A DNA stretch of 63,422 bases, the filler included, from Globobulimina sp. (Eukaryota), in assembly GCA_003354225.1 (NCBI GenBank). It is 21 parts of 21 records of this genome, joined end to end, with 100 filler letters (N's around TTAATTAATTAA, not from the genome) between each part and the next. Parts side by side here need not be neighbours in the genome. Positions count along the whole stretch, not along the records: positions 3,028 to 5,954 come from PIVH01004334.1; 20 more parts are not named here. One strand, 5' to 3'. Made by a program: the position numbers and the translations under genes. How positions within the stretch are numbered: position 1 is the stretch's first letter; each line of letters opens with the position of its first letter. Of this stretch, positions 3,028 through 62,249 are shown piece after piece. The notes beneath the pieces were generated by a model. That model ran no database searches, had not been told where the DNA came from, and was given only the letters and a program-made list of their open reading frames with translations.

Positions 3028-3029
3028 CA

Positions 3030-3881
3030 ATGATTTTCGATAAAATGTTCTGGGAAATGGGCACCATGTGTTTTGACGCATTATTTACCGGTTTAAGCAG
3101 TGTGAGTACCAAATCAGTGGCTGTGTCGAGAGAGGTGTTACGTGAAAGAGAAGCCATTACCACACAGATTGAATTGATGTCGACTGAATTAGAAGTTGCG
3201 TTATCTGAGCAGCAAGAATTGGAGAATCAGAAGAAATGGATCAAAGATCATAGACAGGAAATTAATTCTTATGCTGAGAAGCCGTATTATAAAACTGCAT
3301 ATTATTTTGAGAGAGAAGAACGAAACTCATCCATTATTACAACATGTACAGTTTGTGCAAATAAAACCTGTCATCCAGGATGTTGTGTGGATGATAAAGC
3401 ACATTGTGGCATGATGGGTGCTGGCGGGTATTGCGAGGTTTGTAACTGTCATTACAGTAAACATGAAAATCGCGGTTATGAATGGGTTAAAAAATCCAAA
3501 CAAGTACGAAAATCGGATTGGGAGGATACCCCAACAAAAAAACAAAAATATTCAGATGCCAAACTGAAATTATCACGCTCACAGATTATTATTCAGAATA
3601 AAGAAGATGCATTGCAAAATAAACAAAAAAAAGTAACTGGCATAATTGGGTTTATTCATACTTGTATTTCGAAATTGGAAAAAATCGCATTAAGACCGGT
3701 TGTAACGACTGTTGGTGATTATATTGACAAATTAATTGATGCGGAAGAATCGAATCCAAAAGGTAGAGATCAAAAGAAAATCAAAAAATTAAAAGCATAT
3801 AAAAAGCAAGAAAAATTGATAATGAAAATTGAGAAAAGTGGAAGTTTGAATATAAACGAATTATTGGATGAAACTAAATAA
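3030..3881 (+). CDS. C-terminal part of a coiled-coil/Cys-His-rich protein (resembles the tail of septin/AIG1-like P-loop GTPase families)
   Basis: 283-aa 5'-partial ORF; two coiled coils flank CTVC..TCHPGC..C..C..C.CHYSKH; GTPase domain itself not in the contig. Confidence 0.5.
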   Translation: MIFDKMFWEMGTMCFDALFTGLSSVSTKSVAVSREVLREREAITTQIELMSTELEVALSEQQELENQKKWIKDHRQEINSYAEKPYYKTAYYFEREERNSSIITTCTVCANKTCHPGCCVDDKAHCGMMGAGGYCEVCNCHYSKHENRGYEWVKKSKQVRKSDWEDTPTKKQKYSDAKLKLSRSQIIIQNKEDALQNKQKKVTGIIGFIHTCISKLEKIALRPVVTTVGDYIDKLIDAEESNPKGRDQKKIKKLKAYKKQEKLIMKIEKSGSLNINELLDETK

Positions 3882-4194
3882 ATATTAATCACTATATAAT
3901 GTAATTAGTTTTAATCACTATACTTTGTAATTAATTTTAATTTTAATAGTACAGTATTATTAAACGATGCGTTTTGATACATATTAAACCTTTAGTTTAC
4001 CTTTTCGATTATTTGTTGCGGATATAACACAAAAACAGAACAAAAATGCATTAATGTTTTGCAGCTCAAGTTTAATTATTATAAAAATATGATTTTCTCT
4101 AATTCAGAGGGTGCCGTAAAAACTGCGCCCAAAACAAGAATACTAAATAACAGTATGTGTATTAATATTAGTTTACGTGTTAGCTGTTAAACAT

Positions 4195-5954
4195 TCAACC
4201 ATTCAACATTACTCTAACAGCAATTGAAGGTATAACAGCAGCAATAACTGTAATAACAATTTTCCATTTAAAATCATTCATTTTAATACCCCATAATTGC
4301 GGTGTTATTTCTTTAGTTTCAACGTGTTGCACTAAGGCATCCATCGAATTTAACAACAATTTCAAATCGTTTATTTTCCGATTGTCACATAATTTATATT
4401 TTTCATAATTTAATAATTGTTTCATAGTTTCCGTCGATAAGAATAATTTCTGTCTTTCAACACGATTTAATTGATATTGATTTTCTTTACCAAACCAATA
4501 TCCAATTAACAATATATACGACACATAATATATACAAACACATAAAAAATATGTTTGGGACAATATAAAGCCAGAATTAATTAATATATTCAATAGCTTT
4601 TCGTCACTTTTCTTCCCTTCAATGGCACCAAATATTACAATAACCATTGTGACCAAATTAACAAATACCATAATTACTAAAAATAGCGCTTGCATCTCCA
4701 ATCCGCAAAATACCACATCGCCCTTTCTATGAATAAATGATCGCAACGACAGCCATGAAAACAAATTATTTTCATTATCTAAGCGCAAAAAATTCACACT
4801 GCCGGTCTTACTATTTATATTTTTATGATTTCTTTTTAATTTTAATGTAATTAATTCTGTGATGCCATGCACCTGTTTCCAGTATGACAATGTACGCGAA
4901 GTTATTGTATTAAATGAACAAAATAAAATATAACAAAAGCCAAACATCAATAAAGCCGCTAATATTTCAAGAATAATTGGATGAGAAATTACACTTTGAA
5001 ACAGATTTGAATTTACTGAATTAATATTTATTAATAATGGCAATCGTAACATCAATGGATAAATCGCAGCGAGAATAATCAGTTTTGTTTTATTATTTCC
5101 ATATTCAATCGGATATTCCCATGGATATTTTATCTCATTCCAACCTTTTGAGGTTGCAAAATCCGATGCCATTACATGAACAATTGAATATAACAACGAA
5201 TCTTCAAAATACATTGATACATGTTCCAGCACATGAAACTGCGGGAAAGCGACCTCGAAATCCATACAGCACCAACAACTCAGCAATTGTGTCAATATAA
5301 AATATAATAATATTGGTAACAATGCCGTAAATACAATATCAAGATTTGAAATATTTTGGATCATTGTTTTAAACAGAAAATAAAATATAATATACAATGC
5401 ATAGGATATGAAAATTAATAGAAACCGAATTAACTGATTCTCTCTGAAAGTATGATTAACAAAACACATTATAAATTAATATAGAATTATGTTATAAATT
5501 TAATATTAAAAACATACCTTATTTTTAATCTGAATGTATCATTAAAACAAAACATTGCTGCTAACAAATCAAATGACGCTAATTCTTTTGTCGTATTGTA
5601 TTTGTTATATTTATCATTTATAAATTTATTGTTATAGATTTCGATCCAAATAAATTGCAAACTTAATGTAATCGGTAAAAATAAAAATGAAAATGTTAAA
5701 TACCAATATCGTTTTCTATTCCATTTCCGTGAGACATGATGCGATAACAAATCACTTGCATCCTTTACAAATTCTAAATGTATCCTTTGTGAGCTTGATT
5801 TATTTGCATATTGATTTCCAAAACATTTCTGATTATCAAACAATTGTATCGCTTCATATGTTGCTTCAATTGAAGGAAATCGCAAATACGCAAATGGCCG
5901 CTCCCCATTCTCTCTATAGGTCACAATGCATTTTTTCCTCCACAATGCCGTACC
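4195..5954 (-). CDS. RRM + PHTF-like (7TM ion channel superfamily) multi-pass membrane protein, 5'-partial, intron 5444-5517
   Basis: RNP1-like RPFAYLRF and RIHLEF; phase-2 intron AG|GTATGT...TTTCAG|A joins the two ORFs in frame; FLRLDNENNLFSWLSLRSFIHRKG and TPQLWGIKMN resemble PHTF motifs WLSLRSYLKRRG and PFRLYGLTMN. Confidence 0.75.
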
Positions 5955-6322: not shown

Positions 6323-6570
6323 GATAACTGTTTGTATAGTTGGAATTTTATGATATTTGATGAGGAGTGAGTGGGATTCATGATATTTATGGGTTGGAGA
6401 TGATATATATGATTGTTGAGCTGTGGGTGTGATGGCGCGTAGCGCCTCACATCCCACAGTCTCATACGATCATTATATTCATCTCTCAACACATTAAATT
6501 CATAAAGAATCCCATCTCATCTCTCTCATTCAAATACATAATAATTCCATACTATATCAATAAAGTTATT
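6323..6570. repeat. Long imperfect inverted repeat (fold-back) with GGCGC-GTA-GCGCC apex
   Basis: 6323-6438 aligns by hand to the reverse complement of 6442-6570, differing mostly by single-T indels. Confidence 0.92.
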
Positions 6571-6588
6571 AATTGATAACGTTTTATT

Positions 6589-6646
6589 GGCGTCTTTGGT
6601 GGTGGTGGTGGGTGGCGGTGGCGTTGGCGGTGGCGGTGGTGGTGTC
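6589..6646 (+). repeat. GGT/GGC-rich low-complexity tract (possible G-quadruplex)
   Basis: ggtggtggtggtgggtggcggtggcgttggcggtggcggtggtggt in otherwise AT-rich DNA. Confidence 0.8.
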
Positions 6647-6926
6647 TTTTTATAGTGTTTTTCATTTTTATTTTGTGTTTACTGTGTGTATACTGTGTTA
6701 TCGTATGTTGTTGAGTTGGTTTTTGGATATTATAATACTTAACAGTTAGCTTTCATGGATAACAGGAAATTATGATAAACTAATGTTTTTTACTTAAGTC
6801 AGTACAGTAAACACCTCACATTTCCTTCTCATCCTTCTAAAACGTTTCTATATTGACAAAAATATCAATATACTCATTCGTTCACTCCTTTTTTTTATAT
6901 TCATCCAAATTGTCCATCATCATAAG

Positions 6927-8700: not shown

Positions 8701-9758
8701 TTACAATCTGCAGCAAATTATTATCAAGTTCTAAGACTACTTTATCAAGTTTTTTCTATTATTATTTAGCCGTTCTGAAAAGTAATGGCAAAGTTAAATA
8801 CTCGGCTGTCCATTCTAATAATGATACTCATCTCGTGTTGGATTATACTCACACTCGCATTTGGATAAATGATATACGAATCGTTAAATATTCACCAGAT
8901 TTACTCATTCAAAATGGATTGCTGTTAAGTTTACTTTTCTTTTGTGATACAACAAATCGCCAACAATTATTATTTATTTGTNNNNNNNNNNNNNNNNNNN
9001 NNNNNNNNNNNNNNNNNNNNNNNNNTTAATTAATTAANNNNNNNNNNNNNNNNNNNNNNNNNNNNNNNNNNNNNNNNNNNNTTATTATTATTATTGTTTT
9101 TATTAAAGAATCTTCTAAAATTTAATTCATTTTTCAAGCTTTTAATATCCATTTTATTTTTATTTTCATTATTTAAATGGATTTCCCTTTCAATGGATTT
9201 AACAGATAACATTTAGAGCCGTCCAAACCTAAAAAATGCATCACATCGCCGGTATTATAGTCCTTTTTGATGCTTTTTAGAATTAATGCGAATTATAATA
9301 ATTTTTCTTCATTAATAATTTCTCTCTCGTCCTCGTTTTAAACTGTCTGTTGCTATTTTTCCCTCTTCCACATTTACCAACGTATGGAATGCCACAATTG
9401 TCGCAAATAATTATGTAGACATTTTATTGATTGTCCGGTAATTCCGGATTTCCATTTTCTGCATGCGCAGTCATCTCTGCCTTTTGTTGCACCCATTTCA
9501 CTCAACGTATTGCAACAAATAAATCGAACTCATACTATTTTTGATATATTATTATTTGTAGAATGGAAATATATTCTGTGCAATTTACTACATTTCATAA
9601 TCTTACATAATTCGCAAATTTGCAGCTTTTCTAAATTTGCTGTACAAATTTAGCTATAATTATCTAATTTTAAACCAATAAAACATCGCATCTTTCTAAC
9701 TAAAGTTTAATACTAAACTGACACAGATTGAGAAAGAAATTAAAAGTGCAAACTACCA

Positions 9759-11828
9759 ATGATTACAAATCAAGTTCATCAACTGTTATTGTTGATTTTT
9801 TTAGCAGTATTGTATGGTGCAATTGCAAGTGGCACGAATGTGTATGTTTCAACCGAAACTGGTTCAGATGATAATGACGGCAGTGAGACGAAACCATTCA
9901 AAACATTGAGAACAACAGTATCACACATTTGGACTTTAAGAAATAAACAATCTGTTCAAGATACAATCAATGTATTTGTTGGTAGTGGAACATATGATAT
10001 TTATAATGAAGCCACAAATGATAAAGCCATAAATGATATCTATAAATACAAATCATTATTAGATCTTTGCGGCTCAGCCAACGATAAAACAAACTGGATT
10101 GGATTGGGTGATCAAGTCATTTTCAATGGTGCTGTAAGAATCAACCTAAAGGATCTAATACAACACAAAAAACGCACAAATCAATATTATTATTATTTAA
10201 ACGGTGCCATTTTCGATGAATTAGGTTTAGGTGAAATACAAACTCAAGGTTTAGGTGAATGCAACAACGTTAAATCAGAAATTGCTGTAAATGGAGTTCG
10301 TTTGGAATTAGCCAGATATCCAAACCTTGCAAATACTGCAGACCCAGTATACAAATGGTTGCATATCGATGAAGTAATTGGTACATCCAATAACATGTTT
10401 ACATTCCACAGCGCAGACGGGGCAGAATATTCAAACATTGTAGAAGGCGGCATTGGTGATCTGTGGTTACATGGCTATTTCCATGGTCCTGAAAACGAGT
10501 GGGCTGATAATTTTGTCAAAGTAGAATGGATAAATATGCAGAATCGTACAGTAAAAATTGATGATACCACACCTCCTCTGTATGGATTAAGTTCAAATGC
10601 CAGGTATTATTTGCTAAATACTTTCAAAATGTTGGATCACAAAAATGAATATTTCATTAATAGAAATGATAAAATATTGTATTTATATTTTGACGAAGAT
10701 GATTATAATACTGCAGCAAACAACAATTACGCGATTGAACTAAGCATCATTGATTATGGAATCCGCGTATGTTCACGGAACAATATCAAATTTGAAAATA
10801 TAAAACTAATAAACTTTCGCGAGTCTGCCATAGTAATGAATAAGGCAAATCATATAACAATGGATAACATCAATGTACAAAATATCGCACAACACGGCTT
10901 AATATTGCAAGGTGACAATATCATATTGAATAACAGCAAAATACATAATATCGGTTGCATTGGGATGTTTGAGAAAGGTGGGGATTTTTCCACTTTAGCA
11001 GAAAGCAATAATATTATTGAAAATAATGAAATTACACATTGTGGCAAATGGCAAAGAACCTATACCGGCGGCATTAAATTCCAGAGTGTTGGCAGTATTT
11101 ATCGCAGCAATTTTGTCGCATATGGCCCGCATTCAGGCATACATGGTGCTGGAAATAATAATATATTTGAGCATAATACTCTGGATTCGTTATGTAGAGA
11201 GACTGGTGATTGCGGTGCTTTTTATATTGGTTCAAGTTGGACTTTTAGAGAAAATATATTGCGCTATAATTATTTTACGAATATTAATCGTCGTGATCCA
11301 GCAGCATACAGATACGCAGACAAAAGCAAACTGTGGACAGTTAAAGATGTAATGGCAATATATTTTGATCTCTTTTTATCCGATCAACAAGTTTATGGAA
11401 ATACCTTTGAAGATTGCCAAGTAGGCGTACAGATTAATGGAGGAAATAATGTTAGGATTCATGATAACATATTTATTGGTGGTGAACAGGTTTCGTACAG
11501 AATGTCGCATCTTGGATCTTTTTTTTCTGAGCGGTGTACGTATGGTGGTATTCTGTGGAAGAAATTGGAGAAGTTCAATTACAAAAAAGCCCCATATTCA
11601 ACTGAATATCCAACGTTATTGTCATTAACAAAATTAAATGCATGCAAACCAATGGATAATACAATCAAAGATAATATATGGTGTTGCGATTCCTTACCAT
11701 CAGATGAATGTGTATTGACAACAGATAAATGGGATGCTAATACTCTCAATGAATGGCAAACTGTTAAGAAAAACAATACAGCTTTGTTGGCCACAGATGA
11801 ACGATGTCTGGCTCGCCGCATTCATTAG
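9759..11828 (+). CDS. Secreted right-handed parallel beta-helix protein (pectin-lyase fold; GH141-like with DUF1565-type N-terminus)
   Basis: Signal peptide; VYVSTETGSDDNDGSETKPFKTL, LARYPN, Asn/Gly-rich PbH1-type repeats, DCGAFY, AIYFD; no introns. Confidence 0.8.
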   Translation: MITNQVHQLLLLIFLAVLYGAIASGTNVYVSTETGSDDNDGSETKPFKTLRTTVSHIWTLRNKQSVQDTINVFVGSGTYDIYNEATNDKAINDIYKYKSLLDLCGSANDKTNWIGLGDQVIFNGAVRINLKDLIQHKKRTNQYYYYLNGAIFDELGLGEIQTQGLGECNNVKSEIAVNGVRLELARYPNLANTADPVYKWLHIDEVIGTSNNMFTFHSADGAEYSNIVEGGIGDLWLHGYFHGPENEWADNFVKVEWINMQNRTVKIDDTTPPLYGLSSNARYYLLNTFKMLDHKNEYFINRNDKILYLYFDEDDYNTAANNNYAIELSIIDYGIRVCSRNNIKFENIKLINFRESAIVMNKANHITMDNINVQNIAQHGLILQGDNIILNNSKIHNIGCIGMFEKGGDFSTLAESNNIIENNEITHCGKWQRTYTGGIKFQSVGSIYRSNFVAYGPHSGIHGAGNNNIFEHNTLDSLCRETGDCGAFYIGSSWTFRENILRYNYFTNINRRDPAAYRYADKSKLWTVKDVMAIYFDLFLSDQQVYGNTFEDCQVGVQINGGNNVRIHDNIFIGGEQVSYRMSHLGSFFSERCTYGGILWKKLEKFNYKKAPYSTEYPTLLSLTKLNACKPMDNTIKDNIWCCDSLPSDECVLTTDKWDANTLNEWQTVKKNNTALLATDERCLARRIH

Positions 11829-30502: not shown

Positions 30503-33139
30503 GGAAGAACAAAAATTTATTATTATTATTCATTGTAACGATAAAACATTTGAATATAAACTAAAAGCAAACCTTAATGAATGGACTAACAATAATTATG
30601 TCGATCTGATTGCTTCAATTCGCAAACAATTTAACATAAATTCTGATTTTGATTTATATGAAGATCTTAAAGGTGATAATGATGATATTGTTGATATTGA
30701 CGATATGGATGATATTAAACATGCAATCACTGCAACCGGGCTTGACACAGACACTGACGGTGAAAATGATGACAATAAAGAAGCGCCCGGATTCTTGCCA
30801 TCCAGAAAACCGTTACATCTCTATGTCAAAGTCTATAACACTGTTAATGTTATACTCATACTCATATAACGTATTATTAATGCAATTAAAGCGTTAGTAA
30901 TGGTATCAAACGTTGAATAATATACAAACTGCAATTTGATATCATTACAAACGTTTTATTTGACAAACAACAAAAACAGAATGTTGCATATCATGCATAT
31001 GATGACATGAATGACTTCGAAGGTGATATTAAAGCTAATGAGTTTAAAGATATTATTAATGAGCTTAAGACTGAAATGTATGCAATCAAACAACAACTAA
31101 GTAATGTTAAACAAGCACAGAAACAATGTGCACATTCAGATAATGACGCAAACAAAAACCAAGACAATAAACAACAGCAAACATTCATTGGTCAATGTAA
31201 CAAATGTAATGAAAATATAAAATATTCTGAAAATGAATTATTTAATTTTAAATTGATAAATAATAAATGGCAACATATTGACTGTGGCTATTCACCAAAA
31301 GGTTTAAGTTTAATTAATAAAATTGATGTATGGAGTCCAATTAAATACAGTTTGATCCAATTAAATCAACGAAAAGCATCAATAGATATCGCATCGCCGG
31401 CAGGATGGCATAGTATATTCGGGCTAAACACTATAAAGCGCGGAGATGGTATTATAAAATGGACGGTAAAAATAAATAAGTTGACAAATAACAATTTTTA
31501 TATCGGAATAATTAATTCAACAAAAGTACGCCAATCATTGTCAGGTAATGGGCATACAAATGGTATAGCATTGAGGGGGGATGGTTATATTTATTGTTTT
31601 AAAGAACATTATGGCACTCCTTTTAAATGTAATCAAGATGATATTGTTTGTATTATATTAGATATTCAAAATAATATATTATTTTTTAAAGTGAATGATA
31701 TTGCTATTAATGTTCCTGTGAATGATTTAAATGTTGATTTAAAATCAATGAGTTGGAAATTATTTGCTTCATTATATAATCCAAGTGATGAGATTATGAT
31801 ATTAGACAATGATAATCCTTACGATGATCATAAAGATGAAAGTAAAGAAAATGAACTGAGTGCGCTTCGATGTAGTAACTGCAACAAACCTGTTACCAAA
31901 CGAGACAATGATATTTTTAATATCCAATGGTCAAACAAAGCGCAATGCCAACATGACGATTGCGGATTGAGTGTCTATCAAATTCCTAAATTAGACGCAT
32001 TATCCGCCAAAGATAAATTTAATAAATTAACAGCGTATAAAGCCTCGGTTACATTGAACAACGCAGCGGACGGATTTACTACAAACAAACAAAATGTACA
32101 TCAAACAGTATTTGGTGTGATAACCATTGCAAAAGGTATTAAAGAATGGAATATTCGAATTGATAATGGTTCTGCAAATATGTATATTGGTATTATTGAA
32201 ACTGGCAAACAGAATCTTGTCGCTCCAAATACTGTACCCAATGCTAACCAGGGCGTATATCACATTTCCTGGAATGGGAAAATTAGTGGAAACGGTGTGA
32301 ATTTGCAATCAAATTTATCATACACAAAGAATGATATTTTGAGTGTTGTGCTTGATTTAGATAACAATACATTGGGATTTGGTAAAAAGAATAAATTTGT
32401 GTTGGCGAATGGTGCTCAATTAAAAAATAAAGCATATAACTTATTTGTTTCAATGTATGCTAAGGATAATGGTGTCAGCATTGTGGATAATCGTAACGAA
32501 GAACAAAAATCAAATATTGGCGACAGAGGCAAAATATTATATAATTGCGGTTCTTGTAATAAAGGAGTATATGAGTTGGATTTTGAGATTAATAATACAA
32601 AGTATGATGCGAATGGTTGGGTTCATGTTGATTGCAGTTTTAGAATTGCAAATTTGTCACCAAATGCAAGAGATGAGTGGGACAGAAGAACCTCATGTAA
32701 TGGAAAATTTATTATTAATCGATATGATGCAACCTTGACAGGAACTGGTGGTTATAGTAATGTGTTTGGTATCATTACAATTAGCAGAAATACAAAACAA
32801 TGGAATGTCAAAGTGGATAAACAACAGTCGTATGTGTATATTGGCATTATTGATTCCACCAAATTACAAGGAAAGAAGACAGGACAGCCATCAGATTCTT
32901 ATTTTTTAGCAAACAATGGTTGTATTCAAGGCAGTGGTTTTAGTATTAACACTGCAGTTGGTTTCAAGACCGGTGATGTTGTGAATGTTATATTGGATTT
33001 GGAAAAGGGTGTGTTAAGTTTTGGTATCAATAATGCCAATTTTTCTTATGCAAAAGGTGCAATTATTAAAGGAAGATCATTTAATTTATTTTGTTGTATT
33101 TATAACTATGTAAATACAAAGGTTACAATTCAGCCTTAA
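30503..33139 (+). CDS. Protein with PB1-like N-terminal segment, coiled coil and three (CxxC..HxxC)-SPRY/B30.2 modules; intron 30831-30979; start uncertain
   Basis: Three repeats of W.VKI...YIGII...GDVV.VILDL..G.LSF; each preceded by CxxC...HxDC; phase-0 intron joins the ORFs. Confidence 0.75.
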
Positions 33140-39233: not shown

Positions 39234-39333
39234 NNNNNNNNNNNNNNNNNNNNNNNNNNNNNNNNNNNNNNNNNNNNTTAATTAATTAANNNNNNNNNNN
39301 NNNNNNNNNNNNNNNNNNNNNNNNNNNNNNNNN

Positions 39334-42257
39334 AGATTTACATATAGCATCTGATAAATTATTATTGCATCATCACAATTATATAATTAATTGTGTAGCT
39401 AATAATGCTTCAAAATATTGTATCTCTGATCATTATATAATTTTTACTATTTTTGATACACATAAACCGAACCAATCAGCAACTTCACGTATTAAAAATG
39501 ATATATTTATTGCAAATAATGTAAATTACCGCTTTAAATCACCAAAACATTTAAATTTGTATAAAATAAATACGATATATGCACTTCAACAATTACAACA
39601 TCATATAAATGCTCTCCAAAAGACTGTAAAATCAGAAATTGATAATAAATTAAAATCCGAAATTGATGATATCGCACATCAATTTTATTGCATTATACAT
39701 AAAAACGCTGCAAAATATATTGGTACCATAAATAAACACAGATATAAATATCGCCAAATATGGTGTACTGATAAAATCATTGATCTTGGTAACAAATTGA
39801 AAGTATTAAAACGTGATTGGTTGACATGTTTGAATCTGGATCTCAAGCAATCTAAATTTGATCTGTATAAACGCCAAAAAAACATATTAAAACATCTATG
39901 TACAAAAGCAAAAGAGAATAAATTACGGAAAAATGTAGATTTAACAGTAGCAGGCAACCGTGATATATATGCTTCGATGCGTTATTTACGAAAAATTGGT
40001 AAAAGTGGCTCGCGTAAACATAATGTACCATACCTCATACATAAGGAAACTCTGAATAAAACCCATAAAATTATACATAATGATCACATCAAAGCTAATC
40101 TGTTTGCAAATAAATTCTGTCATCGAAAGATAAATGATATCAAATATAACAGTTTGGACCGCTTGAAATTCAAAACAATTCCATTAAATGATGATATTTA
40201 TCCATGTACCTCAATTATGCAAAATATATCAAATGATATTTTATATGCAAACCAAGTCCGAAATCCCCGCTTAATTCAACATGACAATCATTATCGCAAT
40301 GCACGATATACTTTAAATAGCCCAATAAATGCACATTTATTGCAATATATATTTAAAATCGTTAATAAAAAATGTAATCATGGGATCGGAATACATATCC
40401 AATTGCTATTGTTTCTCGATCCGTATATTATTAATTTTATGGTTACTTATTTAAATTTGTTTTATAATACAGGATATTTTCCACGTATACACAAAATAAC
40501 ATATATCACTGCGATACCAAAACCAAAACGAGACCCACATTTTGTTAATAATTACCGTGAAATTTCTCTTAATGGATGCATTAAAAAGATATATGAACTA
40601 TGCTTATTACATAAAGGAATTGAATTTGTAGTGGTTTGTGATTCCATCCATCCAAATAATACAACCAATATGAAGGGAAAATCAACGCGCGACATAGTAG
40701 CATTGCTAATAAATGATGTTTATACGGGATGGAATCAGCAAATTCCAACATATGCCATTTTCTCTGATATATCCCAAGATTTCCCATCAGTTTGCTATGA
40801 TATCCTCGTTCAAAGATTACATCGCTACTACGGATTCTCTATAAAATATGTACAAGTTATATATGATTTATTTATTAATTGTTGGTGCGCTGTGGTTGTA
40901 AATGGCGTTCGTTCCAAGTGGTTGTTACAACTCATTGGATTGGCACAGGGTCGGCCTTTGAGTCCATTCTTAAATATGTTATATTTAGATCCATTGTATT
41001 ATGCTATTCCCACACATTTGCCATTAAAATTGTACATATACGTCGATGATTTAGTGATATGGACCGTCCTTAAAGCTGTATTTATGTATGACATTGAGAT
41101 TGATTTACAATATGCGATTGATAATATTATCAATTGGCTCCGTATAAATGGCATGCAATTATCTGAAAACAAAACAAAATATATTATTTTTTATACAAAT
41201 CATATGAAAAAGCATCGTCATGTCTGTATACCCAAAATTACTATACATAATATTGTAAAAACAGAACCCGCGAAATATGTTAAATATGTCGGATATTATT
41301 TAACATATAACCTTTCCCCACATATTCACATGAACCATATCGTTAAACGGATATATTTGGATCTTAAAGATATCAAAAACGTTCGTTTTTACACTCAACA
41401 GTTTCGCACAAAAAAATTATTCCACTATTTATCATCGGTGATATTATCTAAAATCGAATATCCAGTGTTATTATTTGCATGTTCATCGACAAAAAAAGAT
41501 AGTAAATCATTGAAACAAATGTATTATCGTATAATTAAACTATTATTTAATGCTTTATATACGATACCATTGGATATTTTAATTATTCTCACTCCATTCC
41601 TGCACTATGAAAATTATATTCATATCAAATTAATAAAAAATTGGATAGGTTTATTATATTTGCATGATCGTAATATTTTATATAACCTCATTATTAATCA
41701 TTGGATGCCCAAATGGAATGATTATATGTTATCTTCTGTTAATATAAAAACACAAAAATCAAAATTGCGGTACATGAAGACTTAGATCGCCGCAATCCGT
41801 TATTTCGAATATTTCTATTTGCCAAACAATATAAAATTATGCATTATATAAATTATAATTGGCGCTTTGATATGAATATGAATGGCAGAAAAATGAAGTT
41901 TATCCCATCCTTTGTAACTAAATGCAAATATATCGAATTTGTACATGATTTATATACAGAAACAAATATATGCAATAATACACATAATACATTGTTTGCA
42001 TTTACAGATGGCTCTATATTTCAAAATTGTGCAGGGGTCGGTATGCTCATTGAAATCCATCAAATACATCATCATTTGAATAGAAATAAGTATAATGTCA
42101 ATAATGTAAGATATATTTATGATAAATATGGACAAAATCATTGCTCAGACACAAACATTGATGTTTACTCTGAAATACATACACATTTACAATATAATGT
42201 CATTTCAATACATCAAGATTTGCTATCCATTGGCTATGCATTTGATATTAATATTGT
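39334..42257 (+). mobile_element. Non-LTR retrotransposon pol: end of APE endonuclease, reverse transcriptase, RNase H; one frameshift near 41760-41785
   Basis: ISDH; IPKPKRD...NYREISL...KIYE; DISQDFPSV; GLAQGRPLSP; YVDD; KYVGY; AFTDGS in the next frame. Confidence 0.93.
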
Positions 42258-42357
42258 NNNNNNNNNNNNNNNNNNNNNNNNNNNNNNNNNNNNNNNNNNN
42301 NTTAATTAATTAANNNNNNNNNNNNNNNNNNNNNNNNNNNNNNNNNNNNNNNNNNNN

Positions 42358-45281
42358 TTATTCACCATAGTATTGCCAGTATTATGCTTCATAATATTTG
42401 CCAAATTTAAGCTAATACTTTGTGACGCACTGTGTTGATTTGCTGGTAACTCGTTATTATTTTGTTGCCATTGTAGACATTGATAGGTCAACAACCGCAA
42501 TGCCGCCCATTGTGCTTGAAAATAGATTTCCATTAATTTCTCATTTGGTTTTTTAATCTCATTCGACGGTAAAAATGAATACCTATTGGTGGCAAATACG
42601 GATAATCGATGTTTTATATTCCTTCCTCTCCGATAATTGTGACCATAATCACGCCTCGATCTTTTCGAGCGATGTCTGGATCCGCCACGGCCGCCACCTC
42701 TTATGCTCCGACCAAAATTACTAAATATCTGATGTTGCGGTGCTTGGTTGGTTAAAATCTGAAAATCGTGCTGTAATTGTTTCTGATAAATGGCATGAGC
42801 GTAGGCTTGTTGTTGTAAGTATGCATGTTCAGCGGCTAACGCCTGTTTGGCCTCCCAGGCTTCGATTGGATTAATATGGGATAATATACCACCATTAAAG
42901 GAGAAATCTAACAATTTAGTGTCATCTTCCTCAATGATATCAACATCTTGTTCTTCATCATCCTCATTATCATCTTCCTCCTCATCTTCTTCATCGTCAT
43001 CGTCATAATCATCGTAATCATCCTCCTCATTATGTTCGTATTGTTCTAATTCCGCAATTTCATTTTGCATTTGTTCAAAAGCTTCGGGGTTTTGAATCAT
43101 AAATTGTTCGAATTGCTGTTGTAATTCGACGGGATTAAATGAACCAAACTCAAAATCAAAATCTTGAGGGATGAAAAACGATAATGTTCCATCCTTAGAG
43201 GCTGAGTTTAATGATGGCGATATCAATGGTAATAATACATTATTTGATTGTTTATCTTCTTGTTTTGGAGCCTGTTTTTCCTCCCGTTTTGGTGGTTGTT
43301 TTTCTTCGAGTTTTGGTAGCTGTTTTTCCGGTGACTTTTCCGGTGACTTTTGCGGAATCGGTGGTGATTTTAATTGTAGTAGTCTTTCCGGCGATTTTTG
43401 AGGGGATTTACTCCGTATCGGTGATAATGGCAATGTTGGCAATATCATCTGCGTTTTCTTAATAAGTTTAAAAACAAATGAAATTAATTGTTGATTCTTT
43501 ATTAATTGAGCTTGATCGATGTCAAATGTCAATCCATAAATATCAGATAATAAAATAATTTTGGTTAACATGGAGGTATTATAATGTTTATTATTTATAA
43601 GCTTCAATGAAATTGCAATAAATTCTGATAACTTTAATTGCACCGATTTTTTAATTCGAATATCACAGCAACCCAAACCATCATAAATATTAAAGCATTT
43701 CGAGACCGATAATAATTTTTTGTTAAAGGAACGTGCAGAATTTCTCAATGATTCAGATAATACCCCAACTAAATTAATTCTGGCCACTTCAAACTTTGAG
43801 CTTTTTAACAATTGACTGAGATATTTCAATCCCATTTGCCGGTGTAAACCACGCAATTGTTGCGATCTCGCCGCAGTGATCAAATCATGATAATCCAAAT
43901 GTTGTTTAATTAATTCAATGATGGCTTGCAAAGGCGATATCTTCTTATTTATTTCAGGTGATTTATCTTGCCACGATTTCCATCGTTTATACGTTCCAAT
44001 CCAATTTCGTAAGCCTTGGACCCGTTTATTTAATCCAAATCCAATCTCCATCTCTTTCTTTCGCTTTTTTGATATTACATCATGACTTATTGACTTTGAT
44101 AAGACTGGTTTTGGCGGTGCTAATTCCTCCTCATTTATATCATCATCATTACCATCGCCATCCTCGTTGACTTGCTTATTATTGCCAGCCTCAACATGAT
44201 GTTTAAAGTCATCCACATCATCAAAAACCTCAATATCTTCGGCAATTACATCTTTGCCATATTTCAATTTTGATGACTCTTTGGATGCAAATAATAACTC
44301 GGCAGAATGGCACGATTTAAATAATAATAATTGTTTGCAAATCGATGTAATATAATCACATAAATCTACAGTTGGATTTTTTATTGGTAAACATGGCGGT
44401 GTTTGTACTGTTGATGCAGTGTCTTTTCTGTCTCTTTTATCTTTCTCTCTTTCTTTTCTCTTTTTACTTTGTTCATATTTCCACTGTGCTTTCGTATTTG
44501 TAATAATTTCATTATATTCTTTATTATACACTTCATACAATCTTTCAATGCACGGTAGAATATTATTTTCATCATATTTTATTCTGGTTAATGTGCATAA
44601 CGCATATAATGTGGCCTTATTTTCATTATATTCATTCTCAAATACAACATGCGGTATTTTTTTTAATAACATCGGCTCAAGTTCTTCTAACTCGTCTTTT
44701 GAATCATCCTTTGACTCATCCTCGTCGTCATTACCATCGTCCTCCTTTTTCTTTTCTTTTGCTGCATCTTCGCCGCCTTCAACCTTTTCATCGTCTTTTT
44801 TACCATCTTTTGGTCCTTCCGTATTTTCCATATTTCCATCAGTTTGCTCTGGTTGCTTTTCATCGTCATCTTCTTTTTTATTATCATCACTGTCAATAAA
44901 ATCTAAATTAGCTCTTTGGTGATCCGTCAAGGACTGTATATATGTATTGATTTTTGTGAGTACATCATCATTATTGAACCAATACCGCCAGTTTTTCGCC
45001 GTTTGATTCATAAAAGTCATCCAATCAATCAACGGTTTAATTTGTTGTTGGATCATTTTCAAGCCTTCTTTAAGAATATTTAAATCGGTTTGAACCAATG
45101 GTTTATTGTTATTATCGTCACAATATTGCCGCGCCATAGTCGCAATACCACCATGTTTCAACATCGCAGACTGAACCGCACGAATTGATTTTTCATAGGA
45201 ATCTTTTGCATTTCTCATTAATATGATTTCTTGAATTGCAGATTTTTGTGGTTTGATCCCAATAAATAATTCTTGCAATGC
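42358..45281 (-). CDS. Internal fragment of a very large protein with acidic and Pro-rich tracts (possibly giant HECT/HERC-type ligase)
   Basis: ORF open across the whole contig; AARSQQLRGLHRQMGLKYLSQLL loosely recalls HERC1/HECTD4 segments; no catalytic domain visible. Confidence 0.55.
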
Positions 45282-45577
45282 NNNNNNNNNNNNNNNNNNN
45301 NNNNNNNNNNNNNNNNNNNNNNNNNTTAATTAATTAANNNNNNNNNNNNNNNNNNNNNNNNNNNNNNNNNNNNNNNNNNNNGATGCTAGGAAATCTTCAA
45401 TATTTACAAAATTCGATGCAAGTGAAATTCCATTGTACGTAATATGGATAATATCTGCAAAATAGTATCTGTTGGTCAATATAGCCAGGGATAACATTAT
45501 TGCATGTTATTTATAACCTAAAAAAACATTTTTTTTTAACCATCCTTCCGAGTTTTACTTTAATTCGAAAAATACAA

Positions 45578-60509: not shown

Positions 60510-62249
60510 CTTCAATATTATTATCAATTAACGTTTGAATACCATCAAAATGATCATAGTGTTGGATTTAAACCGCATAATAATAATAATAATAATAATT
60601 ATAATAATAATCGGGGATATAATAGGAATTATGGTTATAATCGGAGAGGGAGAGAGAGAGTGAGAGGGAGAGGGAGAAGGGGCTATGGACAGAGAGATCG
60701 TAATAGGAATTATAATAATAATAATAATAACAATAATAACAATAATTATAACAGAAATAGGAATTATCAGAATCAGAATCGGCAGTATCGATCCAATCGG
60801 AATCGAGGCATGGATCATAATGCAGGATATAATAATAATAATTATTATTATCGGACTAATAATCAATTTCAAAAACGGCACGTCCAAGAAAGAGAAGGTG
60901 AGATTATTACTGCAGAGAAATATAAAAATATACATTTAACTTTACCCAAATGGTGTAATCATAGTTCGATAGAAACCTTATTTGGCGGCGGTGGTGATCA
61001 TCAATTATTGGATGATAGTTTGTATTTAAATTTTTTATTATCGCGAGCGAGTGATGGTGTTTTTGAATTTGTAGGATTTAAAGAGATAATATTTTGTGGC
61101 TTGTCTTATTTAAATAAGGCAATGTATGCGCGGCTACATGACACGGCACCGATATTTAATCGCTTATATATAAATGATTGGAATTTAGAGTTAGATGTTG
61201 GACGCGACCGCTTCATTAAATATATTGGTGGTGGCCATGTATTCAACAAAAAAGGCTTATTTGCATACAAAAATATCTATGGTTTACGCGAATTTATAAT
61301 TTCTTACAGTACTTCGTTAACGGATTGGTTGTATGCTGTGCCTTGGGACGAATTGAAAGAATATTTGCAAAATGCAAAGAATTTGGAGACTGTAATAATT
61401 GGCTCCTTGAATAATAATAATAATAATAATAATAATGGCAACAACGAGGATAATAATCAGGACATGAATAATAATGAATTAATGTCGCCGTTAATTAGTT
61501 TATTTTCCTCGCTGGTTGCAACCAAAACATTTATTGTAGAATCCACTCCATTTAATATCACCAGTGATTTTATTACCAATTTGAGTCCAATTATCACCGA
61601 TTTACGTTTGTTTGATAAAAAAATAGTTTGGAATGAAACTTTATTGTCGACCATCAAGGCACGTTTTGGTAATTTAAAAAGATTTGGGTTTCCCGCAAAT
61701 TGTATAAATATGCCATCAATGATATCGTGTATTGAAGATTTATGCCATTCCGGCGAATTAATCATAAAAAATACAAATACAAAACAATTATTACAAAAAC
61801 AAGACTTAGCAATGTTATACCAACGATTTGATAAAATTGAGATTGATTCATCCCTTATTCAGCAATATCCGTCCATTAAAAATCAAACTAAAATCAAACA
61901 ATTTACCATCAATGCAGATACACATAATTTTTTTGTTCCATTATTGAGGAATATACAGTCTTCTGTCCAACATTTAATCATTAAAAATACTGCATTTTCG
62001 ACCAATAATATTATTATTGATATATCGCAAAAATCAAAGTATAATACGGCTAATATTACACAATTAACAATGATTGGATTTGATAATCATTTAAAAGAAA
62101 TGCAAAATATTTTAAATCATAATTTATTTCTCAATTTAAGAAAATTAAATATTCTGTCTTATAATAATAATAAATCCAATATTTTTCAATTAAAAAATAA
62201 AAATAATAAACTTACAATAACATTTTCAAAGAATTATAATAAGTATTAA
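60510..62249 (+). CDS. Protein with RG/Asn/Tyr-rich disordered N-terminus and degenerate leucine-rich repeats (start not seen)
   Basis: RGRGRRGYG and polyN tracts; NLETVII, NLKRFGF, SVQHLII, NITQLTM, NLRKLNI. Confidence 0.6.
   Translation, partial: LQYYYQLTFEYHQNDHSVGFKPHNNNNNNNYNNNRGYNRNYGYNRRGRERVRGRGRRGYGQRDRNRNYNNNNNNNNNNNYNRNRNYQNQNRQYRSNRNRGMDHNAGYNNNNYYYRTNNQFQKRHVQEREGEIITAEKYKNIHLTLPKWCNHSSIETLFGGGGDHQLLDDSLYLNFLLSRASDGVFEFVGFKEIIFCGLSYLNKAMYARLHDTAPIFNRLYINDWNLELDVGRDRFIKYIGGGHVFNKKGLFAYKNIYGLREFIISYSTSLTDWLYAVPWDELKEYLQNAKNLETVIIGSLNNNNNNNNNGNNEDNNQDMNNNELMSPLISLFSSLVATKTFIVESTPFNITSDFITNLSPIITDLRLFDKKIVWNETLLSTIKARFGNLKRFGFPANCINMPSMISCIEDLCHSGELIIKNTNTKQLLQKQDLAMLYQRFDKIEIDSSLIQQYPSIKNQTKIKQFTINADTHNFFVPLLRNIQSSVQHLIIKNTAFSTNNIIIDISQKSKYNTANITQLTMIGFDNHLKEMQNILNHNLFLNLRKLNILSYNNNKSNIFQLKNKNNKLTITFSKNYNKY

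What the first reader, a model, noticed from the sequence alone, without database searches (positions are those of the whole stretch)
4195..5954. RRM domain fused by splicing to a PHTF-like 7TM ion-channel domain
Seen: two ORFs listed separately are joined in frame by a 74-nt phase-2 GT-AG intron (…FRLKIR|ENQLIRF…). The first carries an RRM; the second has WLSLRSFIHRKG and TPQLWGIKMN plus a terminal helix. Established: these match conserved PHTF blocks, and PHTF is structurally related to insect OR/GR 7TM ion channels. Inference: a protist 7TMIC-like protein with a cytosolic RNA-binding domain, an architecture I do not know to be described.
Basis: partly seen in the sequence, partly recalled or inferred. 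Interest (0 to 1): 0.72.

Follow-up and report, generated by a model that had tools for sequence, protein, structure and literature searches.

The report
Foraminiferal RRM-fused multipass membrane protein gene
This is the 3' part of a spliced gene, most likely from a foraminifer, that joins RNA-binding (RRM) domains to a seven-helix membrane domain; the domain looks channel-like, but its fold could not be tested here.

Summary
Observation confirmed. On the minus strand, two ORFs (5518-5954 and 4198-5443, stop 4195-4197) are joined in frame by a 74-nt phase-2 GT-AG intron (5444-5517). A contig of another public run skips exactly these 74 bases, while the best DNA run keeps them. Homologues run colinearly across the joint. 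Of 40 listed strain differences, 30 are synonymous.

The gene is cut at its 5' end by the end of a ~2.9-kb contig. The window is 21 short contigs joined by linkers.

RRM: supported. The window holds only beta2 to beta4, including RNP1. Homologues from Nonionella stella and Reticulomyxa filosa carry the whole RRM directly before the membrane part, and the Nonionella protein has further RRMs.

PHTF/7TMIC: not shown. No sequence method links the membrane part to PHTF, OR/GR or DUF3537. Predicted topology and the conservation pattern fit a 7TMIC.

All named members of the family are foraminiferal.

Verdict: a real, unusual domain architecture; the 7TMIC claim stays open.

The parts
5518..5954 (-). 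Exon A, 5'-truncated by the contig end. It encodes the RRM fragment, a basic juxtamembrane stretch, hydrophobic segment TM0 and a loop. Its last two bases (AG) start the split Arg codon.
   Evidence: colinear with P0003/P0004; covered by contigs of X1, X6, X8
5766..5954 (-). RRM fragment (63 aa): beta2 CIVTY, RNP1/beta3 RPFAYLRF, alpha2 SIEATYEAIQLF, beta4 RIHLEFV. Beta1/RNP2 and alpha1 lie beyond the contig end.
5643..5705 (-). TM0: hydrophobic segment WYLTFSFLFLPITLSLQFIWI with a Pro conserved in 15 of 15 aligned rows. Proposed re-entrant hairpin.
5444..5517 (-). 74-nt phase-2 GT-AG intron (GTATGT...TTTCAG), 15% G+C
   Evidence: (joint 5443|5518 in X6 record 7)
4198..5443 (-). Exon B: 415 codons plus the last base of the split codon. 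It encodes TM1 to TM7.
5275..5430 (-). TM1 (5371-5430) and TM2 (5275-5337), separated by an 11-residue loop in the window protein (6 residues in P0003)
5023..5085 (-). TM3 (KLIILAAIYPLMLRLPLLINI), the weakest hydrophobic segment
4909..4983 (-). TM4
4720..4767 (-). Family-wide conserved block NLFSWLSLRSFIHRKG just before TM5 (N 34 of 36 rows, W 36 of 37; R, K and G each in 26-29 of 34)
4495..4704 (-). TM5 (4624-4704, with E conserved in 33 of 35 rows), a short acidic outer loop, and TM6 (4495-4578)
4450..4503 (-). Conserved block after TM6, GYWFGKENQYQLNRVERQ (G 32 of 36, F 31 of 35, first Q 31 of 33)
4276..4305 (-). Conserved hinge TPQLWGIKMN before the last helix (P 29 of 30, G 27 of 28, D/N 29 of 29)
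4204..4272 (-). TM7 (FKWKIVITVIAAVIPSIAVRVML), the terminal helix. Conserved positions K, T, S, P fall at i, i+4, i+8, i+11, with strongest periodicity at 90 degrees per residue.
4195..4197 (-). Stop codon TGA, inside an 8-nt tandem duplication (4192-4207)
   Evidence: (table 4)

Best explanation
The locus is the last two exons of a gene, most likely foraminiferal, for a large integral membrane protein. Its cytosolic N-terminal region carries RRM domains. The last RRM lies directly before the first hydrophobic segment; the window keeps only that RRM's beta2-beta4 part.

The C-terminal ~490 residues form a membrane domain. It has one hairpin-like hydrophobic segment (TM0) and seven transmembrane helices, with the N-terminus inside and the C-terminus outside. 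The outer loops are short and the inner loops are long and basic. The most conserved blocks sit on the cytosolic side of TM5 and TM6 and at a Pro/Gly hinge before the terminal helix.

Shown: the splice, coding constraint, membership of a family known so far only from Foraminifera, and the RRM-membrane fusion on single open reading frames in relatives.

Inferred: the RRMs bind RNA at a membrane. The membrane domain has the architecture of a seven-transmembrane ion channel of the OR/GR/PHTF superfamily (7TMIC, PHTF-like class B). The protein would therefore tether RNA to an endomembrane or the plasma membrane, or couple RNA binding to a channel-like oligomer. I put about 0.55 on the 7TMIC fold, about 0.35 on membership of the PHTF-like clade, and about 0.75 on RNA binding by the RRMs.
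For: Splice and coding.

Family: an exhaustive HMMER search of 1.84 billion representatives gave 24 hits at E<=1e-3. A profile word search gave 17 hits, 12 of them new. All 11 members that carry an organism name come from Nonionella stella, Bolivina argentea or Reticulomyxa filosa; 25 proteins were listed. None were found in prokaryote genomes.

Fusion on one frame: P0004 (1377 aa) has a Pfam RRM_1 hit at 479-520 (E 6e-9) and a complete RRM (VYVSGL...RPFAYLRF...RIHLEVV) directly before TM0. P0006 (R. filosa ETO23099.1, named 'RRM domain-containing protein' by UniRef) and P0008 show the same.

RRM: in a profile search with the membrane-proximal domain, 13 of the 17 PDB sequences at E<=10 are RRM proteins (cyclophilin E/Cyp33-type, ELAVL1, hnRNP R, U2AF65, an 'RNA-binding protein'), best E 0.01. 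Pfam RRM_1 matches 3 of 5 members, best 19.4 bits. The same profile finds the Pfam-verified RRM of P0004. RNP1 keeps its aromatic residues: P-F-A-Y-x-R is invariant in 5 of 5 rows.

Topology: eight hydrophobic segments. Loops assigned to the outside are 6, 21 and 13 aa with K+R of 0, 1 and 1. Loops assigned to the inside are 61, 63, 65 and 74 aa with K+R of 8, 7, 8 and 13. The 20 residues before TM0 hold a median of 5 K+R.

Conservation peaks before TM5, after TM6, and at the hinge and terminal helix. The Himmel et al. preprint reports this pattern for the 7TMIC anchor domain and pore (passages).

Weak lead: a DUF3537 'gustatory receptor' cluster ranked 23rd of 30 language-model neighbours, at 0.81.
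Against: No sequence link to any 7TMIC family. Pfam shows no 7tm_6, 7tm_7, Trehalose_recp, DUF3537 or PHTF hit in 27 members at E<=10 or in 10 more at E<=0.1. PDB profile searches with A1, A3 and A4 return no OR/GR/Orco chain. A profile search at E<=1 returned only family members, none with any precomputed Pfam domain.

The GR TM7 motif (T/S)Yhhhhh(Q/K/E)(F/L/M) is absent. PHTF's long IL1 (>300 aa) is absent: it is 63 aa here, with a family median of 93.

The Atlas scores are all below 0.9, which the tool calls leads only. The best three hits are unnamed clusters, two of them mainly ciliate.

The fold itself is untested. The topology comes from hydropathy and the positive-inside rule, not from a dedicated predictor or an experiment. 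TM0 could be a full transmembrane helix, which would put the RRM outside the cytosol.

The membrane-proximal RRM scores below Pfam's cut-off (19.4 against 20.7 bits), and the window piece alone gives no Pfam hit.

No RRM signal was found in the largest subfamily: hhalign probability 0.6% and no Pfam hit. RNA binding is untested.

Confidence: 0.5

Rival explanations
1. The protein is a membrane-anchored RRM protein, but its membrane domain is a lineage-specific multi-pass fold unrelated to 7TMICs. The resemblance in topology and loop lengths is generic for polytopic proteins. The domain serves as an anchor or transporter, not as an OR/GR-type channel.
For: Every sequence test for a link to 7TMIC families was negative. 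The best Atlas neighbours are unnamed clusters (two mainly ciliate), and a TMEM39 cluster ranks above the DUF3537 cluster. There are 61 residues between TM0 and TM1. I recall, without a call, that in Orco the re-entrant loop lies close to TM1.
Against: 7TMIC families are known for having almost no detectable sequence similarity to each other (PMC9998090 and the Himmel preprint, passages), so negative sequence tests weigh little. N-in/C-out topology, seven helices plus an N-terminal hairpin, short outer loops, a terminal helix with a 3-residue tail and a Pro/Gly hinge before it together match the published list of 7TMIC features.
Confidence: 0.35
2. The RRM-like domains no longer bind RNA and act as protein-protein interaction modules, as UHM-type RRMs do. 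The protein would then be a membrane scaffold or channel regulated by protein partners.
For: The membrane-proximal RRM is divergent and falls below Pfam's cut-off. Gly at RNP1 position 2 is replaced by Pro. PHTF1's N-terminal region is reported to bind a protein, FEM1B (PMC9998090, passage).
Against: The aromatic RNP1 positions (F and Y) and the basic first position are invariant in 5 of 5 rows. The RNP2 Tyr is kept in the three homologues that include beta1. P0004 carries another RRM that passes Pfam's cut-off (36.1 bits). The RNP consensus used here is recalled, not taken from a call.
Confidence: 0.2
3. The two ORFs are not one gene. The joint would be a chance in-frame GT-AG pair, or the locus a decaying pseudogene.
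For: No run on record as RNA holds the stretch. X6 is only guessed to be RNA.
Against: The exact 74-nt skip stands in an independent contig. Three homologues are colinear across the joint. 30 of 40 differences are synonymous, including 7 of 10 in exon A. Neither exon has an internal stop.
Confidence: 0.02

Closest known systems
PHTF proteins / class-B (PHTF-like) eukaryotic 7TMICs (Benton & Himmel 2023, PMC9998090; Himmel et al. 2023 preprint, 10.1101/2023.08.30.555482; passages read)
   Same: A predicted seven-helix membrane core with N-in/C-out topology and an extended cytosolic N-terminal region. IL1 between TM2 and TM3 is longer than in OR/GR (63 aa here, family median 93). The last helix lies at the extreme C-terminus. 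Conservation is concentrated on the cytosolic extensions and the last helix.
   Different: There is no hit to Pfam's PHTF model in 37 members scanned. IL1 is far shorter than PHTF's >300 aa. The N-terminal region carries RRMs, which those passages do not mention for PHTF. The fold comparison was not run, and no PHTF sequence could be fetched for a direct alignment.
Trypanosomatid GRL1 (MORN repeats + 7TMIC) and GrlHz forms with an N-terminal WD40 propeller (PMC9998090, passages)
   Same: A long cytosolic N-terminal globular or repeat domain fused to a 7TM core, in a unicellular eukaryote.
   Different: The fused domain here is an RNA-binding RRM (several in the Nonionella homologue), not a protein- or lipid-binding repeat. 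The lineage is different (Foraminifera). Membership of the 7TMIC superfamily is not shown.
Reticulomyxa filosa ETO23099.1 / UniRef X6NBF0 'RRM domain-containing protein' and ETO20300.1 (hypothetical, partial)
   Same: Same family (E 3.8e-31 and 8.5e-55 to the A1 profile). ETO23099.1 shows the same RRM-TM0-TM1 junction.
   Different: These are paralogues or fragments, about 42-55% identical in the overlap (and by eye). Neither record covers the whole protein or is annotated as a membrane or channel protein.
Canonical RRM proteins (Pfam PF00076), e.g. the cyclophilin E/Cyp33 RRM, the best PDB profile hits
   Same: The order of elements beta1-alpha1-beta2-beta3-alpha2-beta4, and RNP1 with its aromatic residues.
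   Different: Soluble RRM proteins have no membrane domain. Here the RRM is followed within about 20 residues by a hydrophobic segment.

Membership tests
RRM (Pfam PF00076 RRM_1) | Score at or above Pfam's gathering cut-off (20.7 bits) | tested here: not met
   The window exon A gives no Pfam hit at E<=10. The membrane-proximal domain of homologues scores 19.4 bits at best, in 3 of 5 members at E<=10. A different RRM of the same protein in P0004/P0028 passes with 36.1 bits.
RRM (Pfam PF00076 RRM_1) | RNP1 octamer on beta3 with aromatic residues at positions 3 and 5 (consensus recalled) | tested here: met
   R-P-F-A-Y-L-R-F at 5877-5900; P, F, A, Y and R are invariant in 5 of 5 rows.
RRM (Pfam PF00076 RRM_1) | RNP2 hexamer on beta1 and the full beta-alpha-beta-beta-alpha-beta unit | tested here: inconclusive
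   Beta1 and alpha1 lie beyond the contig end in the window. They are present in P0004, P0006 and P0008 as (V/I)Y(V/I)SGL. The fold was not modelled.
RRM (Pfam PF00076 RRM_1) | Profile similarity to solved RRM domains | tested here: inconclusive
   13 of 17 PDB sequences at E<=10 are RRM proteins, but the best E is 0.01. The profile finds the Pfam-verified RRM of P0004 at 13.8 bits in a one-sequence search space.
7TMIC superfamily (OR/GR/GRL/DUF3537/PHTF) | Seven transmembrane helices with the characteristic packing | tested here: inconclusive
   Hydropathy gives seven helices plus one N-terminal hydrophobic segment.
7TMIC superfamily (OR/GR/GRL/DUF3537/PHTF) | Intracellular N-terminus, extracellular C-terminus | tested here: met
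   Met by the positive-inside rule only. K+R is 0, 1 and 1 in the three short loops and 8, 7, 8 and 13 in the long ones. The stretch before TM0 is basic. There is no experimental support.
7TMIC superfamily (OR/GR/GRL/DUF3537/PHTF) | Extracellular loops shorter than intracellular loops | tested here: met
   6, 21 and 13 aa against 63, 65 and 74 aa in P0003. Family medians are 6, 15 and 14 against 93, 56 and 68. This depends on the topology above.
7TMIC superfamily (OR/GR/GRL/DUF3537/PHTF) | Long TM4-TM6 helices forming a cytosolic anchor domain, and a split TM7 (7a/7b) | not testable with these tools
   This needs a structure model. Two things are compatible with it: conserved blocks on the cytosolic side of TM5 and TM6, and an almost invariant P...G hinge 6-10 residues before the last helix.
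7TMIC superfamily (OR/GR/GRL/DUF3537/PHTF) | N-terminal re-entrant loop (TM0) | tested here: inconclusive
   There is a 21-residue hydrophobic segment with Pro in 15 of 15 rows. It must be a hairpin if the RRM is cytosolic and the C-terminus is outside, but it lies 61 residues before TM1.
[not shown]
   No model could be made, so fold search was never run.
Animal GR/GRL | TM7 motif (T/S)Yhhhhh(Q/K/E)(F/L/M) (PMC7746228, passage) | tested here: not met
   The last helix reads FKWKIVITVIAAVIPSIAVRVML, and the family consensus is K..xT...S..P(T/S)I. At most the first position fits.
Animal GR/GRL, OR, plant DUF3537 | Match to Pfam 7tm_7, 7tm_6, Trehalose_recp or DUF3537 | tested here: not met
   None in 27 members at E<=10 or in 10 more at E<=0.1.
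PHTF | Match to Pfam's PHTF N-terminal model (accession recalled as PF12129) | tested here: not met
   No such hit in 37 members scanned or in the window pieces.
PHTF | Long first intracellular loop (>300 aa) between TM2 and TM3 | tested here: not met
   63 aa in P0003; family median 93, range 63-201 in a partly unreliable alignment.
   No PHTF sequence could be obtained from any tool. A degenerate motif scan of metagenome and prokaryote contigs returned only one family member and 36 chance hits. The string is in no paper of the library.

The most novel reading that the evidence does not exclude
The membrane domain is a true OR/GR/PHTF-type tetrameric channel, and the fused RRMs make it RNA-regulated. 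RNA binding at the cytosolic face would gate or localise the channel, or the channel would report or control local mRNA load in the reticulopodial network. This would be the first ion channel of this superfamily, or of any, built with canonical RNA-recognition domains. It would also place an expanded class-B 7TMIC family in Foraminifera.
Probability: 0.12. Interest if true: 0.85.

Novelty: new variant of a known kind. Interest (0 to 1): 0.55.

Why it matters
RRM domains are almost always found in soluble proteins. A family that welds them to a conserved seven-helix membrane core is a rare architecture.

If the core is a 7TMIC, three things follow. It adds an RNA-binding module to the few known cytosolic fusions of that fold (MORN, WD40). 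It puts Foraminifera on the map of the superfamily. And it gives a concrete handle on what PHTF-like proteins, whose function is unknown, might do: act at a membrane together with RNA.

If the core is not a 7TMIC, the family is still notable. It is an expanded set of membrane-anchored RNA-binding proteins specific to foraminifera, with at least four subfamilies and 42 database proteins. These are giant single cells that must position mRNAs over long distances.

Tried and rejected
No model exists and no fold search was run.

Complex prediction: I sent four copies of residues 345-593 of P0003 with alignment A3. It gave 'no usable answer'. No result of any kind.

ESM Atlas: one search ran.

No whole genome is held for the window.

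RNA evidence: no RNA holder is listed. Three runs are only guessed to be RNA.

Sequence bridges to known families all came back empty:
- Pfam on the window pieces, P0003 and 37 family members.
- PDB profile searches with A1, A3 and A4. The only hits were TPR-CHAT at E 0.62 and an 'Ion channel' chain (3wkv) at E 0.14, both taken as chance.
- A word-indexed profile search with A4 at E<=1.

Attempts to fetch PHTF-like or further relatives as DNA:
- The search for related loci failed on A4 and A1 because no conserved stretch was available.
- With A5 it found 0 relatives in metagenome contigs (312 pattern matches) and 0 in prokaryote genomes (97 pattern matches).
- A degenerate pattern for the pre-TM5 block gave 26 metagenome loci, of which 1 was real (L010, the P0015 gene). 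It gave 11 prokaryote loci, none real; L033 at 12.9 bits was taken as chance.

RRM in the large Bolivina/Nonionella subfamily: hhalign of A2 against their N-terminal regions gave probability 0.6%. The idea that the fusion is ancestral to the whole family is therefore not supported.

Paralogues elsewhere in the window: none by tblastn.

Rfam and tRNA scans of the window found nothing. A suspected inverted repeat at 6360-6520 was not found by the repeat finder.

Literature searches returned 0 papers for 'Reticulomyxa' + 'gustatory receptor', 'Foraminifera' + '7TMIC', '7TMIC' + 'RNA recognition motif' and 'WLSLRS' anywhere. Two broader searches gave nothing relevant. 'Reticulomyxa filosa' + 'RRM' gave 2 unrelated papers, seen as a listing only.

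They may list foraminiferal hits that I could not see.
Full report
WHAT THE WINDOW IS. The 63,422-base window is not one piece of chromosome. The string TTAATTAATTAA, flanked by runs of N, occurs 20 times at about 3,025-base spacing (0.07 matches expected by chance). The window is therefore 21 short contigs joined by six-frame-stop linkers. The finding lies on one contig of about 2.93 kb (about 3028-5954). It is A+T-rich, at 26-39% G+C in 500-base windows. No whole genome is held for the window.

THE OBSERVATION. The gene is on the minus strand.
- Exon A runs from the contig end (5954) down to 5518.
- A 74-nt stretch (5444-5517) starts GTATGT and ends TTTCAG, with 15% G+C against 29% in the exons.
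- Exon B runs from 5443 to 4198, with the stop TGA at 4195-4197.

Three independent results support the joint.
- Reads: I laid four public runs on the stretch. Contig record 7 of run X6 (3322 nt) joins 5443 directly to 5518 and skips exactly the 74 bases. Run X1, the 99-100% identical DNA holder, runs through the intron without a break.
- Homologues: P0003 (593 aa, 63% identical) and P0004 (1377 aa) are colinear across the joint, with one alignment column left for the split codon.
- Selection: of the 40 base differences that one search lists between the window and contigs of X6, X7 and X8, 30 are synonymous in the proposed frames. 19.9% would be expected for random changes (binomial p about 1e-13). 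Seven of the ten in exon A are synonymous. One search did not show four further differences.

Caveats. X6 is only guessed to be RNA and belongs to a different organism code than X1. Its intron-less form could therefore be genomic. X7, the guessed-RNA run of the same organism code as X1, does not cover the joint. Exon A has no start codon and is open to the contig end. Record 7 of X6 continues 2483 nt upstream of 5954. The window therefore holds only the 3' part of a much longer gene.

THE FAMILY.
- Word-indexed searches of 5.8 billion proteins found one relative, P0003.
- The exhaustive HMMER search of 1.84 billion cluster representatives, using a profile of P0003 plus the two window pieces, found 24 proteins at E<=1e-3.
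- A later profile search added 12 more, and cluster look-ups added 5 near-copies. That makes 42 database proteins in all.
- Of the 25 proteins listed in the two look-ups, 11 carry an organism name. All 11 are Foraminifera: Nonionella stella, Bolivina argentea and Reticulomyxa filosa.
- No relative was found in prokaryote genome contigs. Only one was found in JGI metagenome contigs (L010).
- A maximum-likelihood tree of the TM5-TM7 region shows at least four well-separated groups. It used 27 of 40 rows; 13 rows shorter than 150 residues in this region were dropped. The window clusters with P0003, the Nonionella protein P0004 and the R. filosa fragment P0005. Nonionella appears in two groups, so the paralogy is old.
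- The window's exon B still matches a Bolivina member of the most distant large group at E 1e-16 over 218 residues.

THE RRM. On its own, the window's exon A gives no Pfam hit. Homologues explain what it is.
- P0004, P0006 (R. filosa ETO23099.1, which UniRef names 'RRM domain-containing protein') and P0008 carry a complete unit directly before the first hydrophobic segment: (V/I)Y(V/I)SGL, a helix, CI(V/I)TY, RPFAY(L/V)R, a helix, and then (I/V)xLE(x)V.
- The window keeps beta2, RNP1/beta3, alpha2 and beta4 (5766-5954). The rest is off the contig.
- In a profile search with this domain, 13 of the 17 PDB sequences at E<=10 are RRM proteins, though the best E is only 0.01.
- Pfam RRM_1 matches 3 of 5 members, the best at 19.4 bits, just under the 20.7-bit cut-off.
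- The same profile picks out the RNP1-alpha2 part of two upstream RRMs of P0004. One of these passes Pfam at 36.1 bits.
- The aromatic RNP1 residues are invariant in the five aligned rows.

I conclude that the domain is a divergent but real RRM. The full protein of this subfamily has several RRMs followed by the membrane part; by eye, P0004 has about four. For the largest subfamily I could not show an RRM (hhalign probability 0.6%; no Pfam hit).

THE MEMBRANE PART. Hydropathy shows eight hydrophobic segments.
- Suppose the first one (TM0, with a Pro conserved in 15 of 15 rows) is a hairpin and the other seven cross the membrane. Then the N-terminal RRM region is cytosolic and the 3-residue tail is outside.
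- On that model the three outer loops are short and nearly free of Lys/Arg: 6, 21 and 13 residues, with K+R of 0, 1 and 1.
- The inner loops are long and basic: 61, 63, 65 and 74 residues, with K+R of 8, 7, 8 and 13. The same holds for family medians.
- Eight full crossings would put the basic juxtamembrane stretch and the RRM outside, against the positive-inside rule.
- Family-wide conservation peaks in three places: a block just before TM5 (N, W, RKG, then E in TM5), a block just after TM6 (G..F..E...Q......Q), and a hinge I.P...G...D six to ten residues before the terminal helix. In that helix the conserved K, T, S and P follow a helical repeat.

Himmel et al. (preprint 10.1101/2023.08.30.555482; passages read) list the defining features of 7TMICs. 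These are seven helices; N-in/C-out topology; short outer and long inner loops; long TM4-6 extensions forming an anchor domain; a split TM7; and an N-terminal re-entrant loop. They also report conservation concentrated in the anchor and pore. For the PHTF-like class B they report a longer loop between TM2 and TM3. What I can measure fits this list.

WHAT DOES NOT FIT, OR IS MISSING.
- No sequence method connects the family to PHTF, OR, GR or DUF3537. Pfam is negative on the window pieces and 37 members. So are PDB profile searches with three different alignments and a profile search at E<=1 in which no hit carried any Pfam domain.
- The GR TM7 motif (PMC7746228) is absent.
- IL1 is 63 residues here, not over 300 as in PHTF (PMC9998090).
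- The only hint from a similarity tool is a DUF3537 'gustatory receptor' cluster at rank 23 of 30 language-model neighbours, at 0.81. It ranks below unnamed clusters (two mainly ciliate) at 0.85 and a TMEM39 cluster at 0.83. All of these are in the range the tool calls leads only.
- The decisive test is a structure model compared with Orco/OR/GR chains.
I share that recollection, but it comes from no call. I could not obtain a PHTF sequence by any tool, including two degenerate-motif scans. The claim is therefore untested, not established.

HOW IT MOST LIKELY WORKS.
- Shown: one reading frame links RRMs to a conserved polytopic membrane domain in several foraminifera, and the window's copy is under purifying selection.
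- Inferred: the RRMs face the cytosol and bind RNA, because the RNP1/RNP2 aromatic residues are kept. The membrane core is a 7TMIC-type unit (probability about 0.55), most likely of the PHTF-like class (about 0.35). PHTF1 is reported to sit in the endoplasmic reticulum (PMC9998090, passage).
- The simplest mechanism is a membrane-resident RNA-binding protein that holds or positions RNAs on an endomembrane. A bolder version has RNA binding regulating a channel-like oligomer.
- Main rival (about 0.35): the membrane core is a lineage-specific fold and merely an anchor.

KNOWN OR NEW. Members of the family are in public databases as hypothetical or fragmentary proteins (R. filosa ETO23099.1 and ETO20300.1; EukProt entries). 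I found no paper that describes them.
- Searches for 'Reticulomyxa' + 'gustatory receptor', 'Foraminifera' + '7TMIC', and '7TMIC' + 'RNA recognition motif' each returned 0 papers.
- The Himmel et al. preprint's main text contains none of the words Reticulomyxa, Foraminifera, Rhizaria or RRM. The eLife 2020 paper's main text has neither Reticulomyxa nor Rhizaria. The eLife 2023 paper has neither 'filosa' nor Foraminifera and names Rhizaria only once, in spelling out SAR.
- Fusions of 7TMIC cores with cytosolic MORN or WD40 domains are in print, so an N-terminal fusion as such is not new. An RRM fusion would be.

I file this as a new variant of a known kind, conditional on the fold, with interest 0.55.

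Noticed in passing
window 1-63422 (linkers at 2972, 5999, 9026 ... 60444): The window is 21 contigs of about 2.9-3.0 kb in descending length, joined by N runs around TTAATTAATTAA (20 linkers). Neighbouring 'genes' across a linker are not neighbours in the genome.
   Followed up: yes
window 4192-4207: There is an 8-nt tandem duplication (CATTCAAC twice on the + strand) spanning the stop codon. A contig of run X7 has one copy only (table 4). By my reading this changes the C-terminus from ...MLNG* to ...MLNV*.
   Followed up: partly
window 3028-3881 (+): A convergent neighbour ORF, 5'-truncated by the other contig end. It is Cys/His-rich in the middle and Lys-rich at the C-terminus, and ends 313 nt from the finding's stop codon. 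It has no Pfam hit at E<=0.001 and no PDB sequence hit at E<=1.
   Followed up: partly
window 39290-41782 (+): An ORF with a reverse-transcriptase domain (RVT_1, E 2.3e-15), probably a retroelement on another contig.
   Followed up: no
window 30917-33136 (+) and 9744-11825 (+): Long ORFs with a SPRY domain (E 1.1e-15) and a right-handed beta-helix region (E 3.4e-10) on other contigs. Three other long ORFs (5-2971, 42309-45329 minus strand, 60510-62246) have no Pfam hit at E<=0.001.
   Followed up: no
window 6552-6752: A simple-sequence tract that reads as poly-Pro/Thr on one strand and W/R or G/W repeats on the other (ORF list).
   Followed up: no
L010 2-598 and 3219-3674: The metagenome contig that carries the P0015 gene begins and ends with nearly the same coding sequence (...CCSPKAIGTAFLFLFYSPNARKECISDGI...EKFDLEPLTRMCRSCMELPPD). 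This suggests head-to-tail gene copies or a circular assembly artefact. The upstream parts of that gene sit in other frames, so it too is probably spliced.
   Followed up: no
P0023 481-504, P0019 about 430-445 (subfamily of Bolivina/Nonionella): A short ...(I/P)xD(I/C)xALWR... block lies after the first hydrophobic segment in this subfamily. A similar ALWRKKC block lies before that segment, inside the RRM, in the window's subfamily. This could be chance or a rearrangement.
   Followed up: no
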